From positions 264,407,971 through 264,471,970 of the forward strand of contig NC_085843.1 in assembly GCF_035594765.1 (NCBI RefSeq): a DNA stretch of 64,000 nt. Reading direction: 5' to 3'. Below, in pieces: positions 1 to 6,000 of this stretch. Made by a program: the position numbers. The first letter of the stretch is position 1; each line of letters begins with the position of its first letter. Source of the stretch: Anolis carolinensis (taxonomy: Eukaryota).

Positions 1-3000
1 CAACTTTTAAATTCTTTTACAGTATCACTCTGTACAATATTGGCCATGTTTTGTATTTCTCTATTCATCCTTTAAGAGTAATTGTGAATAATGCTTGGGT
101 GCTACAGGGCCAAGTAGGATTTCCTTTGGGAGAACATCAAGACAAAGAATGCAGTGAAATTGCAACATAGATCTTAATAGTTGTGCTTCACTTCATTATA
201 TTCTTCCAAGTATCAGCTTGCCATGTTATGGAGTTGCCCCAGTCCCTAGAGGCTCCTCCGTGGATTTTGCTTTTTCTTATGACATAAATGGGATGTAAGC
301 AGGTGATTGAGAGATTTTGCCCATACCAGGCACTGGCTTTCTTGTGGCAAGCAGTGGTCAGGAGGTTATGGAGAACACTTCCTCTTTGTATTCCCAACAG
401 ACTTGCTTCACTGCAGATTGTATTTTGATTATTCAAACAAGCTGTGATTCCCATTCACCCACTACTACTGTCTTCTCCTCTGTTCTAGTTGAAGAACAAA
501 TTCACTTCTTTCTCCTGCCCTTACTGAGTGTTTCTAAAGGAACTATGACATCAGAAAAACACACAAAATAAATCTTCATCTACATTGTCGGTTTTGATTT
601 CACTGCACAGCAGTCTTCATCTCCTAGAAGTGTGGTGGCTGAACTGACATCTTCCTAATCAGCTGCTATCCAAGATCAAAAAGCTGCCACTTATATCCAG
701 TTTGCTTCTCTACATAGATTATTTGCAAAACAGTGACGGTATTTGCTCTAGTGGGGAAAAAACCCCAATGCAAATGATTTGAGGATTATCTGGAACTGAT
801 CATGAAGAACTGGTGAAATAGAACTAGCACTTTAAAATGATACAGTGTATTTGTGAAGGGCAAACAATAGAGCAAATACTGTTCAGGGGACAACACCAGA
901 AAAACCAAACTAATTATGAGTATTAGTCCTGAAAATAATAAAGAAGGCTCTGCAGAACTTGCTGAAAATTTAATTTTTGAAATGTTGCACAAAATTTAGA
1001 TGTGACATGGGATCCATGGGATGGGAAAGAGCATAAAGGGGTGGAGTGAACAAAATCCAGGATATTTTATGAATATGAAGGTAAAATCAAAACAAAAAGA
1101 TATGGAACCTATCAAAACTTTTCCCTCTTCTGAATGAGCTCTCAGAATGATGTTTTCTTTGCGAATGTTGTGAGATATTCTATGTCCTATATATTACATT
1201 GTATTCTTAGTTATAAAACAAATGTAAAAAGTTATAGCATATTCATTTGGATTTTATAAGAAGAGGGAGGAGGAGAACCCTAGCCATTTAAAACTCTTTC
1301 TAATTTTCCTTCTACATATTCTTTGTTGTCTAGCCAGAAATTCATCAGCTTTATTGCTTTCATCATAACTTAAGAGGAATTTATTCAACCTCTGCTTTAT
1401 TGTAAACATCTACCAAACTTTATGTTGTACAATAATGATAATTAGTTGTCAAAACAATTTGATATATTGTCAAGAGAGGATTTGATGCTTTGATTCAACT
1501 GATTACTTGTCTTCATTTGGAGTGAGCCATAAGTACATATAAAAAGTAAATCACTAACAGGTTCCAAACTAATATTTGAAGGTGCACTTTCATTAAAAGT
1601 AATGTTATATCTGTTTTATAAATGAAAATGAACAGATAATCAAACTGAAATGTATAAGTCACATTAATGTATGTAACCATCTAATGTAATGTAACCATTA
1701 GGCTTGAGCGATCCATGAAAAAATTGATTCTAAACTCGTTTCAAAAGTAGGGGGCGCCAGCGTTTCGTTTCTGATGTCATTTCCAAATTTTGCCCCCCCA
1801 AAAATTCGAAATTAACAAAAATTCGTTATTTTCTAAATTAATTCGTTAATGGCGGACGCACATGCGCAGTGGCCAAAAAAAAAACAGCACGAGGGGAGAT
1901 TTTACAGGACTCTCCCGCCCTCATTTTTTGAGTGATCTTCTTCAAACTTGGTACAGTGGTAGAACACATTTCCCTTATCCTCTGATTTTTGGCGAATTTT
2001 CATAGCTTTTATAATAAACCATTTTTTAATAATTGCAGAAATCTGTTCCTGGTTTGAAAGTCTTATTTCCTGTTTCATTGGGTTGTCTTTACTGTGAAAG
2101 TCATTGTTCTACTTCAGAAACTTTGTTTTTGTGGCTGAAACTTTGTTAAATTGGTGGACCAAACCATAATATGTTCCATCCATGTCGCTTGCACAAAGTT
2201 CAGGCAGTGTCATAGATTTTGCCATGTTTCTATGACAGAACCAATTAGGAAATGACATTTATCACCCAGGAACAGAAATCATAGTACACCATCAAATCCT
2301 TCCTGACAGATGGCCATCAGCCTCTGAATAAGGAAATTAGTTCCTGGTTTGAAAGTGCTATTTCCTGTTCCATTGGCTTTTCTGGGCTGAGAGTGTGTGA
2401 CTTGCCCAAGTGGGTGGCAGAGTGGGGAATCATGCCACAATTGGAGTCCAAAATTCAAACCTCTTCCTCCCTCCTTCTCTCTAAACTTCTCATACCTTCC
2501 AAGAATTCACATACTGTATGAAAGTTTGGTCAAGATGGTCAGAGGAGGGCAACTAAAATGATCTAGGGTCTGGAGAACAAGCCCTATAAGGAGTGGCTTG
2601 AAGAACTGGGCATGTTTAGCCTGCAGAAAAGAAGGCTGAGAGGAGACATGATGTATAATATGTGAGGGGAAGTCATAGAGAGGAGGGAGCAAGCTTGTTT
2701 TCTGCTGCCCTGCAGACTAGAACACTGAACAATGGCTTTAAACTACAGGAAAGGAGATTTCACCTGAACATTAGGAAGAACTTCCTCACTGTGAGCTGTT
2801 CAGCTGTGGAACTCTCTCCCCGGGCTGTGGTGGAGGTTTCTTCTTTGGAGGCTTTTAAGCAGAAGCTGGATGGCCATCTGTTGGGAGGGATTGGATGGTG
2901 TCTTCCTGCCTGGCAGAAGGGGTTGGGCTGGATGGCCCACGAGGTCTCTTCCAACTCTACTGTTCAATGACGCTATGATTCTAAGTGAGGACAAAAGGGG

Positions 3001-6000
3001 GTGGGGAATGTTAAGAGGAGAGAGGGCCTGGAACACCTGGGAATTGTAGTTTGCAAGTGGGCATAGTACTATTGGAGAAACGTTTGCTTCAGCCCAATGC
3101 TTTTATAAATGGTCAATATTCAGAGGCTTCCTTCTCCTGCATTTTGAAAGCTATTATGATGAAATTTGCCAGAATGGAAGCAAAAATTAAGTACTCTTAG
3201 CCTATCAAGTTTCATAATGTTTGACCCATCCACTGATTTTTGGGGATTTCTGAAGCAACATTTTTTTTAAATGTTAGCAGATCGATAGCCACGCCTCCCT
3301 GTCCTTCTTCCTTCCACTTTGATTAGCTTGCTAAGGCTTCTGGGAAATGGAGTTTTTTCTCTCGTTATGGCGAATTGCTTCATTAATGGTCAATATTCAG
3401 AGGCTTCGTTCTCCTGCATTATGAAAGCTATTATGATGAAATTTGCCAGAATGGAAGCAAAAATTAAGTACTCTTTGCCTATCAAGTTTCATAATGTTTG
3501 ACCCATCCACTGATTTTTGGGGATTTCTGAAGCAACATTTTTTTAAAATGTTAGCAGATCGATAGCCACGCCTCCCTGTCCTTCTTCCTTCCACTTTGAT
3601 TGGCTTGCTAAGGCTTCTGGGAAATGGAGTTTTTTCTCTCGTTATGGCGAATTGCTTCATTAATGGTCAATATTCAGAGGCTTCGTTCTCCTGCATTATG
3701 AAAGCTATTATGATGAAATTTGCCAGAATGGAAGCAAAAATTAAGTACTCTTTGCCTATCAAGTTTCATAATGTTTGACCCATCCACTGATTTTTGGGGA
3801 TTTCTGAAGCAACATTTTTTTTAAAATGCTAGCAGATCGATGTCCATGCCTCTCCCTCCCTCCCTCTTCCGCTCTGATTGACTGAGAGGCATGCCAACAT
3901 GGCTTCTCCTCTCAGAGGGGCTACAGCTTCATCCGAAGACATCAGAAACAAACGAAAAAAGGTACTTTTATTATTCAAATTCGTAATATTTGTAAGGGCA
4001 GTGAGCAGATGGTTCAATATTAATTCAAAATTGCTTACGAAACGAATTTTTAACGAATTTAACGAAATAACGAAAAATTTGCTCTAGCCTAGTAACCATC
4101 TTTGGATGGTTAAAATAGTCATCATTATAATGGATTGAGCCTGGAATCTAAAGCAGGATTGGGAACCTTTGCCATAGAACTGAACCACATTTTGCAGTCA
4201 AAAAGGTGTGGCAAGAGGAAGTGATCTGGGGTTGTTGTGTGTTTTCCGGGCTGTATGGCCATGTTCCAGAAGTATTCTCTCCTGACGTTTCGCCCACATC
4301 TATGGCAGGCATCCTCAGAGGTTGTGAGGAAGTGATCTCTATATCTTGAGCTAAAATACCCAAATTGGTACGAATTATACCTTGTAACGCCACCCATTTT
4401 GCTTGCTCTGTGCTTGGCCTTGTCATGTGTTTAGTTATACTCTCTGTTGGAATGCAACTAAGCCTCTTCCTAAATTACAAATTCCCCTCTGGATTGTAAA
4501 AACCCTTCTCCAAGTCTTACCACTGCTTGCTTAATTAAAAATAAATGCATGGCAATCTGTTGGAATTGATAAGAATGTAAAGGAAGGCAAAATCATATGG
4601 TTTGGAATCGTTTTCTCTGGTAATTGTGTGTTTTGTGGGTTTTTTGTATCTACCTGCATAAGTCAACCTTGTGCATAAGTTGAGGACAAGTTTTGAGGCC
4701 AAAATTATGGATTTTGGTCTGACCTGTGGATAAGTCCACCACCACCATTTTCCCATCCAGGAATTCAAAAAGGCCCTTTGCCACTTTACTCAAATAAATA
4801 AATTATTCCTTTTCTTTGGGTAAAAATTGAGGTACAATGTTAACCCTTATCAAAAAGGAACCATCCCCTTATTTGAGTAGAGTGGTGAAAGGCGAGAGCT
4901 TAGCTTGTCCCAGTAGAACCAAAAGGAAGGACAAACTTCTCAATTCCCTTTGTACTCCTTTGAGGGGAAGCACCAAAGATCTGCCATTGCTGCCACCATA
5001 TCCCACAGGTAGTGAAGGGGTCTGTGCTTTCTTCAGCTTCTTCAGGAACAGACTAATTTCTCATTTTCCTCCACTCTATTCAAGGAAGGGTTCCTTTTGT
5101 TGATAAGAGTGAATACTGTATCTTAACAAACCAGTCCCTCTCTGAGTAAAGTGGCAAATGGCTTTTTTGAATGCCTAGGTAGGAAAATGGTGGTAGCTAG
5201 AGGTGGTTCCTTTTTAAGTAAGAGTTGAGGTGAAGTGTTTTCATTGGCCTATGGATAGTTTTGGTATGTGTGTGTGTCAATTTTTGACTAGAATGTCTAG
5301 AGTTATATATGAGGATATATAGTTCCTATTTTCTGAGGCCCTTCTGGGGTGCCTCCACTGAATGAGAAAAGCTACTTGTGAAAGTCTGCTCCTTGAGAAG
5401 CTGATCTTTTTTGGCACATCTTACCCATGTACTGATCTCGCTGTCAGTTCTTTGTGATCACACTTTGTAGCCTTCTGAAAAGGTGATTTCTTCAAGTTCC
5501 TGGCCTTGTCTATTCAATCAAATGCCATTGGCTTGACTAGAGCAGTTGGATTACTATAGTTGAAACTGTAGTAATCCAACGGCTGATCAATGAAGTGTAG
5601 ACTTATATAATGCAGCTAAATGGTGTTAAACTGCATTTTGAAACTGCATTATTTGACAATGTAGATGGGGCCTGAGAGACAGAGGTAAGTGTCCCCCATA
5701 CATTGTAATACCATGCTAAAAATCCTAGCATTTTATATAAGTTACCATTGGCCCACATGCAATTTTAGCATCCTTCTTTTGAGCTGCAAATTCTCCCACT
5801 GCCGAAGAATGGATGCCACCCTTGCCATTATCATGAAATTATTTTATGATTATTCAAAGAATTCTTGAATCTTTGCTTGGTGGTAGCCAGTGAAGATTTC
5901 TATATAACATACAAACCACAGCCAGAAATCTATTCCAAATCAATATTCATACAATGATGATATGCTGTCAAACATTAGTATTATGTTGTCGTCATGCTTT

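What the first reader, a model, noticed from the sequence alone, without database searches (positions are those of the whole stretch)
1699..4091. Cargo-carrying hAT elements with a shared left arm but different right arms and payloads
Seen: this element and 34398-36273 each have TIRs and a perfect 8-bp TSD. They are near-identical for ~460 bp (copy 1 lacks ~30 bp after GAACACATT), then diverge completely, and even their AACGAA-rich right arms differ. Copy 1 holds SINE, CR1 and MITE scraps plus a 277-bp array. Copy 2 holds microsatellites, a Sauria SINE, a Penelope fragment and a promoter-like island. Most scraps show no TSD of their own. Inference: a Pack-MULE-like modular hAT system in which arms recombine and capture host DNA. 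Composite DNA transposons have been noted in anoles, so the novelty lies mainly in the cargo.
Basis: partly seen in the sequence, partly recalled or inferred. Interest (0 to 1): 0.65.

Follow-up and report, generated by a model that had tools for sequence, protein, structure and literature searches.

The report
Known anole hobo transposons carrying filler
These are two ordinary copies of the non-autonomous "hobo" DNA transposons already described in the green anole genome, which were reported in 2010 to carry scraps of other repeats and to swap ends by recombination.

Summary
Both elements are real: 11-base terminal inverted repeats (10 of 11 each) and perfect 8-base target duplications. Their ends match Table 1 of Novick et al. 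2010 (PMC3014272) for hobo_AC and its 15 non-autonomous families. Copy 1 has the group B repeat and a CR1 piece. Copy 2 has the autonomous/group A type repeat and a ~330-bp SINE.

Corrections:
- The right arms are homologous: 93 of 146 columns, z=14.
- The left arm is a mosaic: 91.7% then 98.9% identity, p=4e-4.
- The 277-bp array is a diverged paralogue of the element's own left arm, not foreign cargo (E 7e-7 to 9e-6; 1e-4).

About 115 bp of a MITE-like piece is shared by both copies beside the same arm, with different target duplications. That piece therefore travelled with the arm. Termini are CpG-rich (o/e 1.1-2.2) and the interior is CpG-poor (0-0.37), which fits old filler DNA. No lizard genome or repeat library could be searched, so the exact family and copy numbers are untested.

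The parts
1691..1698 (.). Left target site duplication of copy 1 (GTAACCAT)
   Evidence: Identical to 4092-4099. It fits the published pattern NTRNNYAN at 8 of 8 positions (pattern). In the TSD test, 3 of 298 random position pairs gave a repeat of 8 or more bases.
1699..1709 (+). Left 11-base TIR of copy 1, TAGGCTTGAGC
   Evidence: Read. It is identical to the TIR listed for hobo-N7 to N13_AC (group B) in Table 1 of PMC3014272.
1699..2156 (+). Left arm of copy 1, shared with copy 2. It holds TTCGTT subterminal repeats and a CpG-rich first 273 bases. It lacks 33 bases after GAACACA.
   Evidence: Identity is 242 of 264 before the gap and 186 of 188 after it. CpG o/e is 1.17 for the first part and 0.21 for the second.
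2042..2276 (.). MITE-like piece with 30-base inverted arms. Its left half (to 2156) is also present in copy 2.
   Evidence: The arms are 2042-2071 and 2247-2276, 23 of 30 complementary (3 of 500 shuffles reach the score). An 8-base direct repeat CAGAAATC flanks it (3 of 298 null pairs). That repeat may instead be part of the inverted repeat.
2286..2332 (-). Short inverted scrap of the CR1 3' region
   Evidence: It matches 2855-2901 in reverse (47 columns, 83%, E 5e-7) and also 19259-19305 and 59231-59271. See also inverted repeat I1.
2333..2392 (+). Second, diverged copy of 2038-2097 (an internal segmental duplication that includes the MITE-like left end)
   Evidence: 49 of 60 identical, z=18.3, 0 of 500 shuffles reach the score. 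The left-arm HMM gives E 4.1e-9.
2384..2550 (.).
   Evidence: The only other match in the window is 27 bases at 15298-15324. It holds 0 CpG in 167 bases. Its identity is not established.
2551..2986 (+). 5'-truncated CR1-type 3' end
Evidence: It aligns to the reverse complement of 59142-59596 up to the shared 3' terminus. BLAST gives 85.1% over 457 columns. No TSD of its own: the best repeat is 5 bases, matched by 59 of 298 null pairs.
3102..3932 (+). 277-bp tandem array (three units, the last diverging into the right arm). It is a distant paralogue of left-arm positions ~204-362.
   Evidence: TRF reports 3108-3852, 2.7 copies, 97% matches. The left-arm HMM hits all 3 units at E 7.1e-7, 4.3e-6 and 9.1e-6. 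The unit HMM hits copy 2's left arm at 34641-34727, E 1.1e-4. The tail of unit 2 against 3844-3883 gives 29 of 40, z=7.1.
3948..4091 (+). Right arm of copy 1 with AACGAA subterminal repeats, ending in the right TIR (4081-4091)
   Evidence: Homologous to copy 2's right arm: 93 of 146 columns, z=14. It holds 5 AACGAA in the last 200 bases. CpG o/e is 2.21.
4092..4099 (.). Right target site duplication of copy 1
   Evidence: GTAACCAT.
34390..34397 (.). Left target site duplication of copy 2 (GTTGCTAT)
   Evidence: Identical to 36274-36281. It fits NTRNNYAN at 7 of 8 positions; position 3 is T.
34398..34885 (+). Left arm of copy 2, including the left TIR TAGGCTTGATC (34398-34408) and the left half of the MITE-like piece (about 34771-34885)
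   Evidence: The TIR fits the published TAGGCTTSATC (group A) and TAGGCTTGMTC (autonomous hobo_AC).
34924..34960 (.). (TG)n microsatellite
   Evidence: TRF: 18.5 copies, 100% matches.
34966..35295 (.). SINE, about 330 bp
   Evidence: Aligned end to end with the copy at 46451-46771. It has only a 6-base TSD-like repeat TGTATA in low-complexity flanks (19 of 298 null pairs), whereas the other copy has an 11-base TSD (1 of 298). The size fits the 333-bp ACA SINE that the paper gives for ancestral group A.
35403..35450 (.). (TAA)n microsatellite
   Evidence: TRF: 16 copies, 100% matches.
35451..35825 (.).
Evidence: No significant second copy in the window. The best hit is E 0.57 by BLAST and 0.04 by nhmmer, and no reported hit lies in the open frame of the Penelope-like element at 47568-49811. 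CpG o/e is 0.06.
35826..36060 (-). CpG island. Read on the minus strand, it has promoter-like features.
   Evidence: GC 0.67 and CpG o/e 0.72-0.74. On the minus strand it shows a CCAAT word, G-rich boxes, an ATG followed by GCC repeats, and two GTGAGG words (printout). There is weak similarity to copy 1 at 3849-3886 (29 of 40, z=3.1; 8 of 500 shuffles reach the score).
36129..36273 (+). Right arm of copy 2 with AACGAA repeats, ending in the right TIR (36263-36273; reverse complement TAGGCTTGCTC)
   Evidence: It holds 5 AACGAA in the last 200 bases. The right TIR fits the published hobo_AC pattern TAGGCTTGMTC.
36274..36281 (.). Right target site duplication of copy 2
   Evidence: GTTGCTAT.

Best explanation
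Both elements are non-autonomous members of the published anole hobo_AC group of hAT transposons. Copy 1 is of the group B type and copy 2 of the group A / autonomous-end type.

Neither encodes a transposase. They are cut and pasted by the hobo_AC transposase supplied from elsewhere in the genome. I infer that the transposase recognises the 11-base terminal repeats and the inverted TTCGTT/AACGAA subterminal repeats, and that it makes the 8-base target duplication.

The interior is filler that master copies acquired before they amplified. I infer it came partly from old host DNA copied in during faulty gap repair, and possibly partly from insertions into a master copy. This filler is carried to each new site. 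Part of copy 1's interior, the 277-bp array, is amplified from the element's own left arm.

The unequal divergence of the two copies (left terminus about 92%, adjoining shared filler about 99%, right arm about 64%) is the trace of recombination between element lineages.

Shown here: the ends, the target duplications, the homologies, the shared filler piece and the CpG contrast. Taken from the paper: copy numbers, family-wide cargo and recombination. Inferred: the gap-repair route and the transposase binding sites.
For: 1. Ends and target sites. Each copy has 8-base perfect TSDs and 11-base TIRs matching 10 of 11. The TIR words equal those in Table 1 of PMC3014272: TAGGCTTGAGC for hobo-N7 to N13, and TAGGCTTGMTC / TAGGCTTSATC for hobo_AC and group A. 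The TSDs fit NTRNNYAN at 8 of 8 and 7 of 8 positions. Lengths of 2393 and 1876 bp lie within the published 1.3-3.4 kb.

2. Cargo class goes with TIR type as published. The copy with the group B TIR carries a CR1 3' end. The copy with the group A type TIR carries a ~330-bp SINE, against the published 333-bp ACA SINE, plus further filler where the paper places a Penelope piece.

3. Subterminal repeats. 10 of the window's 12 AACGAA words lie in the last 200 bases of the two copies. 6 of its 13 TTCGTT words lie in their first 200 bases, in inverted orientation.

4. No transposase. 0 of 82 open frames of 85 aa or more in the window carry a hAT-type domain.

5. Cargo that moved. The left ~115 bases of a MITE-like piece (copy 1 2042-2156) lie beside the same arm in copy 2, within a stretch that matches at 186 of 188 bases, at a site with a different TSD.

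6. CpG contrast. CpG o/e is 1.14-2.21 in the termini and 0-0.37 in every interior piece. The window as a whole is 0.21.

7. Mosaic divergence. Mismatches are 22 of 264 before the gap and 2 of 188 after it (Fisher p=4e-4). With CpG-context mismatches removed, p=0.011. The right arms match at 93 of 146 columns.

8. [quoted passage not shown] It describes 3'-end swaps for hobo-N14 and N15.
Against:
- Neither length equals a published family length. Copy 1 is 2393 bp against 2262, 2465 and 2766 for N8, N9 and N7. Copy 2 is 1876 bp against 1854 for N1 and 1911 for N14. N1 is said to have a 176-bp deletion in the SINE, which copy 2 does not show.
- The Chapaev piece that the paper gives for group B could not be recognised. 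The published Chapaev TIR words gave only chance-level matches.
- The Penelope label for copy 2 is unverified.
- Copy 1's right TIR differs from the published word at one base.
- The paper places Chapaev in group B, yet the shared MITE-like piece is in both copies.
- The species of the window is not known to me.
- Some pieces look like true insertions rather than captured scraps: the CR1 keeps its natural 3' end, the SINE has a 6-base TSD-like repeat, and the MITE-like piece has an 8-base flanking repeat.
Confidence: 0.85

Rival explanations
1. Ordinary nested insertion after landing. Two short hAT elements inserted here, and the SINE, CR1, MITE and other pieces later jumped into them at these loci, so the cargo is unique to each locus and never moved with the arms.
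For: The CR1 piece ends at its natural 3' terminus, as a 5'-truncated retrotransposition product would. The SINE in copy 2 is flanked by TGTATA on both sides, and the MITE-like piece by CAGAAATC.
Against: - The left half of the MITE-like piece is present in both copies at different loci, within a stretch matching at 186 of 188 bases, so it predates both insertions.
- The host TSDs are perfect and the termini are CpG-rich, so the insertions are young. The interior pieces are CpG-depleted (0-0.37), truncated, and 11-15% diverged from other window copies.
- The TGTATA repeat is reached by 19 of 298 random pairs and lies in a TG/TA microsatellite. The independent SINE at 46451-46771 has an 11-base TSD.
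- The CR1 piece and the Penelope-like piece have no TSD: 5 bases (59 of 298 null pairs) and none.
- The paper reports the same cargo classes as family-wide markers in families of 16 to 689 copies.
Confidence: 0.04
2. The cargo is carried and amplified with the arms, but all of it entered by normal insertion of active repeats into a master element. None of it came from capture of host DNA during repair.
For: The intact CR1 3' end, the SINE with a possible short TSD, and the MITE-like piece with an 8-base flanking repeat (3 of 298 null pairs). The paper itself calls the group A and B markers 'insertions'.
Against: - Several pieces are short scraps in mixed orientation without TSDs, such as the 47-base inverted CR1 scrap and 2384-2550.
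- All filler shows CpG depletion at the level of the surrounding genome, while the termini do not. This fits DNA that was already old when it joined.
- The array and the 60-base internal duplication are rearrangements and not insertions.
Confidence: 0.08
3. These are hobo-type elements, but of families not in the 2010 catalogue. They would be new recombinants or families of another anole species, so the particular arm and cargo combinations would be new.
For: Neither length matches a listed family. Copy 2 combines a full-length SINE with a total length near families said to have a deleted SINE. The 277-bp array is not mentioned in the main text: the word 'tandem' occurs once, in another sense. 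The species is unknown.
Against: The TIR words, the TSD pattern and the cargo classes all fit the catalogue. Individual copies commonly differ from a consensus by indels and by array copy number. The supplements and figures, which hold the family structures, could not be seen.
Confidence: 0.2

Closest known systems
hobo-N7/N8/N9_AC (group B non-autonomous hobo_AC families, Anolis carolinensis; Novick et al. 2010, PMC3014272)
   Same: Copy 1 has the same 11-base TIR word TAGGCTTGAGC, an 8-base TSD fitting NTRNNYAN, a length in the same range (2262-2766 bp), and a CR1 piece inside.
   Different: The length does not match exactly. The Chapaev piece named in the paper was not recognisable. The right TIR differs at one base. 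The 277-bp array is not mentioned in the parts of the paper I read.
hobo-N1 to N6_AC (group A) and hobo-N14_AC, with the autonomous hobo_AC
   Same: Copy 2's two TIRs (TAGGCTTGATC and TAGGCTTGCTC) fit the published TAGGCTTGMTC (hobo_AC) and TAGGCTTGMKC (N14). It has an 8-base TSD and a ~330-bp SINE, against the 333-bp ACA SINE of ancestral group A. Its length of 1876 bp is near N1 (1854) and N14 (1911).
   Different: N1 and N6 are said to have a 176-bp SINE deletion that copy 2 lacks. [quoted passage not shown] The Penelope piece is unverified here. The family assignment stays open.
Pack-MULEs of plants (recalled, not looked up here)
   Same: They work alike in outline: non-autonomous cut-and-paste elements that carry and amplify DNA picked up from the host between conserved ends.
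   Different: They belong to a different superfamily (Mutator, with long TIRs and 9-10 base TSDs by recall). Pack-MULEs are defined by host gene fragments, whereas here the cargo shown is other repeats and element-derived sequence. No host gene fragment was demonstrated.
Ds-type deletion derivatives of Ac with filler DNA from abortive gap repair (recalled; the paper's introduction cites interrupted gap repair)
   Same: They are in the same superfamily. They have internal deletions, filler DNA and internal duplications between intact ends with subterminal repeats.
   Different: The anole elements carry much more foreign repeat DNA and form many amplified families. The repair mechanism is inferred here and was not tested.

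Membership tests
hAT superfamily | 8-base target site duplication | tested here: met
   Perfect 8-base TSDs at both copies. In the TSD test, 3 of 298 and 2 of 298 null pairs reached the observed repeat length.
hAT superfamily | Short TIRs with terminal motif YARNG (as stated in PMC3014272) | tested here: inconclusive
   The TIRs are 11 bases, 10 of 11 matching in each copy. 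The ends read TAGGC, which fits YARN but has C where the motif has G. The published hobo_AC TIR shows the same departure.
hAT superfamily | Target preference nTnnnnAn (recalled for Ac/hobo-type hATs) | tested here: met
   GTAACCAT and GTTGCTAT both have T at position 2 and A at position 7. The motif itself is recalled. The paper's NTRNNYAN contains it.
hAT superfamily | Transposase with a hAT dimerisation domain (autonomous members only) | tested here: not met
   0 of 82 open frames of 85 aa or more in the window match a hAT-type Pfam domain. This is expected for non-autonomous members and does not exclude membership as such.
hobo_AC non-autonomous families (hobo-N1 to N15_AC) | 11-base TIR TAGGCTTGAGC (group B), or TAGGCTTSATC / TAGGCTTGMTC (group A / autonomous) | tested here: met
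   Copy 1's left TIR is an exact group B word, and its right TIR has 1 mismatch. Copy 2's left and right TIRs both fit TAGGCTTGMTC.
hobo_AC non-autonomous families (hobo-N1 to N15_AC) | TSD pattern NTRNNYAN | tested here: met
   8 of 8 positions for copy 1 and 7 of 8 for copy 2.
hobo_AC non-autonomous families (hobo-N1 to N15_AC) | Length 1.3-3.4 kb with a family-specific central region | tested here: inconclusive
   2393 and 1876 bp lie in the range, but neither equals a listed family length. The central regions could not be compared.
hobo_AC non-autonomous families (hobo-N1 to N15_AC) | Group markers: CR1 plus Chapaev (B); Penelope plus 333-bp ACA SINE (A) | tested here: inconclusive
   The CR1 3' end in copy 1 and the ~330-bp SINE in copy 2 are supported by second copies in the window. 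Chapaev was not recognisable. Penelope is unverified.
hobo_AC non-autonomous families (hobo-N1 to N15_AC) | Sequence identity to a family consensus (published divergence from consensus 0.2-1.2%) | not testable with these tools
   No repeat library or lizard genome is on hand. Only window.fa lies in /data. Figures are not held and supplements are closed.
Pack-MULE | Mutator-type ends (long TIRs, 9-10 base TSD; recalled) | tested here: not met
   The TSDs are 8 bases and the TIRs 11 bases.
Pack-MULE | Carries fragments of host genes | tested here: inconclusive
   0 of 9 interior open frames of 85 aa or more (3 in copy 1, 6 in copy 2) match Pfam; one further copy-2 frame, 34535-34801, lies in the left arm and also has no match. 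The CpG island in copy 2 looks like a promoter with a first exon on the minus strand, but its origin is unknown.

The most novel reading that the evidence does not exclude
The CpG island near the right end of copy 2 (35826-36060, read on the minus strand) may be the promoter and first exon of a host gene, captured by a hobo-N lineage and now spread to many sites. In the same reading, the 277-bp array in copy 1 would show that these elements also amplify their own arm sequence into internal satellites. Together this would make hobo-N elements a vehicle that scatters promoter-like islands and seeds tandem arrays through the anole genome. The parts of the 2010 paper that I read do not describe either feature.
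Probability: 0.15. Interest if true: 0.4.

Novelty: already known. Interest (0 to 1): 0.12.

Why it matters
It matters little as a discovery. The system, its cargo classes and its recombination were published in 2010.

The value here is a correct label for two loci, plus three small refinements:
- The array is self-derived.
- The arms show mosaic divergence.
- The CpG contrast between termini and filler gives single-locus support for the view that the filler was old host DNA when it was acquired.

If the CpG island proved to be a captured host promoter, it would be a concrete case of a vertebrate DNA transposon spreading regulatory DNA.

Tried and rejected
- Other family members in the window: none. 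HMMs of the left and right arms and the 16-base end word find only the two copies and their internal paralogues.
- An autonomous partner in the window: none. 0 of 82 open frames have a hAT domain.
- Chapaev TIR words from the paper's Table 2: only chance-level matches. In copy 1 there were four matches to the 11-base word with 2 substitutions each, as common outside as inside. The published group B marker could therefore not be placed.
- The Penelope label for 35451-35825: sensitive BLAST and nhmmer against the window find nothing significant, and no reported hit lies in the open frame of the RT + GIY-YIG element at 47568-49811 (best E 0.57 and 0.04).
- A tRNA-like head in the SINEs: Rfam gave 0 matches and ARAGORN 0 genes.
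- Array unit against copy 1's own left arm alone: not significant (z=1.7; E 1.9), because copy 1 lacks the 33 bases in the middle of the homologous stretch. The signal comes from copy 2 and from the two-copy arm HMM.
- Array unit against copy 2's right side: no similarity (z=-0.3 and z=0.0).
- My impression that 2987-3101 is a further diverged unit was not supported; there was no nhmmer hit.
- Island of copy 2 against the inner right side of copy 1: only marginal (8 of 500 shuffles reach the score).
- The 8-base repeat around the MITE-like piece as a TSD: ambiguous. The same words are part of the extended inverted repeat and recur before the third arm copy.
- Not attempted, because no tool here holds lizard DNA: a genome-wide count of arm and cargo combinations.
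- The N run at 36948-37093 was left as it is.

Full report
**What is there.**
- Copy 1 spans 1699-4091 (2393 bp). It is flanked by GTAACCAT on both sides.
- Copy 2 spans 34398-36273 (1876 bp). It is flanked by GTTGCTAT on both sides.
- Each copy ends in 11-base inverted repeats that match at 10 of 11 positions.
- The 16-base left end, allowing 3 mismatches, occurs only at these two places in the window. Shuffles give 0.23 expected, and 3 of 100 shuffles reach two matches.
- The window has 64,000 bases with one N run at 36948-37093, which I left alone.
- Nothing but the window was available as DNA of this organism.

**How alike the two copies are.**
- BLAST joins copy 1 positions 1-458 to copy 2 positions 1-488 at 86.6% over 494 columns. 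It finds nothing else except a 51-base internal echo.
- A global alignment gives 430 matches and 24 mismatches, with a 33-base gap in copy 1.
- The arm is not uniform. Before the gap 242 of 264 aligned bases match, and after it 186 of 188 match (Fisher p=4e-4). With the 7 CpG-context mismatches set aside, p=0.011.
- The right arms are not unrelated. The last ~145 bases align at 93 of 146 columns, z=14 against 200 shuffles.
- An HMM of the two right arms finds only those two places in the window.
All four arms are homologous, with very unequal divergence.

**Subterminal repeats.** AACGAA occurs 12 times in the window, and 10 of those lie in the last 200 bases of the two copies. TTCGTT occurs 13 times, and 6 lie in their first 200 bases. 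The words are thus in inverted orientation at the two ends. This is the arrangement expected for transposase binding sites in hAT elements. That role is inferred and was not tested.

**The interior of copy 1.**
- From 2042 to 2276 there is a MITE-like piece with 30-base inverted arms, 23 of 30 complementary; 3 of 500 shuffles reach the score.
- Its left half is the last part of the arm shared with copy 2.
- A 47-base inverted CR1 scrap follows.
- A second, diverged copy of 2038-2097 lies at 2333-2392 (49 of 60 identical, z=18.3).
- 2384-2550 is unassigned.
- 2551-2986 is a 5'-truncated CR1-type 3' end. It aligns to a second copy at 59142-59596 right up to the common 3' terminus.
- The 277-bp array lies at 3108-3852, with 2.7 copies at 97%.
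- The array is not foreign. An HMM of the two left arms hits all three units at E 7.1e-7, 4.3e-6 and 9.1e-6.
- In the other direction, an HMM of the units hits copy 2's left arm at 34641-34727 with E 1.1e-4 (56 of 87 identical, z=7.3).
- The homologous stretch runs across the 33 bases that copy 1 lacks, so copy 1 has a deletion there rather than copy 2 an insertion.
- Against copy 1's own arm alone the signal is not significant (z=1.7).
- The tail of the last unit runs into the right arm as an older, diverged version of the unit tail (29 of 40, z=7.1).

**The interior of copy 2.**
- After the break come (TG)18.5 and a ~330-bp SINE that matches 46451-46771 at 89.1%.
- I could not verify the Penelope label. 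Nothing else in the window resembles this piece, and no reported hit lies in the open frame of the Penelope-like element at 47568-49811.
- Rfam and ARAGORN see no tRNA-like part in the SINEs.

**Do the pieces have their own target duplications?**

| Piece | Best flanking repeat | Random pairs reaching it (of 298) |
|---|---|---|
| Independent SINE at 46451-46771 | 11 bases | 1 |
| SINE inside copy 2 | TGTATA, within a TG/TA microsatellite | 19 |
| CR1 piece | 5 bases | 59 |
| Penelope-like piece | none | n/a |
| MITE-like piece | 8 bases | 3 |

The words flanking the MITE-like piece also belong to the extended inverted repeat, so that case is ambiguous.

**Evidence in the window on whether cargo moves.**
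- The left ~115 bases of the MITE-like piece lie next to the same arm in both copies, within a stretch matching at 186 of 188 bases, at loci with different target duplications. That piece was therefore in place before both insertions and travelled with the arm.
- CpG content splits each copy cleanly. The termini have o/e 1.14-2.21 and the copy 2 island 0.72. Every other interior piece has 0-0.37, and the window overall has 0.21.
- All parts of one copy have spent the same time at this locus. The contrast must therefore date from the master copy, whose filler already looked like old, methylation-worn host DNA.
- This fits capture of old genomic DNA better than fresh insertion of active repeats. 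The counts are small, and selection on CpG-containing binding words in the arms is an alternative cause.

**What is known.** Novick et al. 2010 (Genome Biol Evol 3:1, PMC3014272) describe this system in Anolis carolinensis. I read the abstract, the whole hAT results section with Table 1, and part 1 of 2 of the discussion. I did not see figures or supplements. The paper reports:
- An autonomous family, hobo_AC, of 9-15 kb with TIR TAGGCTTGMTC.
- At least 15 non-autonomous families of 1.3-3.4 kb with TSD pattern NTRNNYAN.
- Group A (N1-N6) with TIR TAGGCTTSATC. Its ancestral form carries a 520-bp Penelope piece and a 333-bp ACA SINE.
- Group B (N7-N13) with TIR TAGGCTTGAGC, carrying CR1 and Chapaev pieces.
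- Families of 16 to 689 copies each, 3,272 in all.
- Recombination between groups that swaps 3' ends (N14, N15).
[quoted passage not shown] Copy 1 has the exact group B word and a CR1 piece. Copy 2 has the autonomous/group A type words at both ends and a full-size SINE. The TSDs fit the pattern at 8 of 8 and 7 of 8 positions. Two further literature searches found no other paper on these families in the library.

**Limits.**
- I could not compare either copy with a family consensus or count copies in a genome.
- Neither length equals a listed family length.
- The Chapaev marker could not be recognised from the published TIR words.
- The family within each group stays open.
- I do not know the species. 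If it is another anole, these could be sister families.

**Mechanism.** I commit to trans-mobilisation by the hobo_AC transposase of non-autonomous elements. Their interiors were built in master copies from captured old host DNA, self-duplication and perhaps some direct insertions, and their ends have been exchanged between lineages by recombination. Confidence is 0.85 that these are hobo_AC-type non-autonomous elements working this way. No transposase lies in the window: 0 of 82 open frames have a hAT domain.

**The island.** Read on the minus strand, the island in copy 2 shows a CCAAT word, G-rich boxes, an ATG followed by GCC repeats, and two GTGAGG words. It resembles a CpG-island promoter with a first exon. 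Its CpG level is closer to the termini than to the filler. Group A elements are said to be deletion derivatives of the autonomous element. I therefore lean to it being the native hobo_AC 5' region, with a captured host promoter as the bolder alternative. I built and searched no spliced model.

**Verdict.** The feature is real and well observed, and its interpretation is broadly right. It is already in print, so interest is low.

Noticed in passing
window 47568-49811 (-): A single open frame of 748 aa with a reverse transcriptase domain (E 1.7e-9) and a GIY-YIG nuclease domain (E 9.2e-6). This pairing marks Penelope-like elements (by recall). The frame looks intact.
   Followed up: partly
window 22384-22725 (+) and 54440-54799 (-): A reverse transcriptase fragment (E 4.4e-11) and a weak endonuclease-RT fragment (E 0.0039, below the curated cut-off). 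Both are remnants of other retroelements.
   Followed up: no
window 46442-46783: An independent copy of the same SINE as in copy 2, with a clear 11-base target duplication CTCCAATGTTA. An (AT)n run follows a few dozen bases downstream of it.
   Followed up: yes
window 1665-1698: The left flank of copy 1 is itself an 18-base tandem duplication, so the target word GTAACCAT occurs twice to the left of the element.
   Followed up: no
window 36948-37093: A run of 146 N lies 675 bases to the right of copy 2. It was left untouched.
   Followed up: no
window 1850-1870 and 34549-34569: Both left arms hold a CpG-rich near-palindrome around GCGCATGCGC (GCACATGCGC in copy 1), just inside the TTCGTT repeats. 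By recall this resembles an NRF-1 type site. Its function is untested.
   Followed up: no
window 4225-4330: Just to the right of copy 1 lies a ~100-base scrap that I recall as part of a very common anole repeat. It has no significant match to the filler of copy 2.
   Followed up: partly
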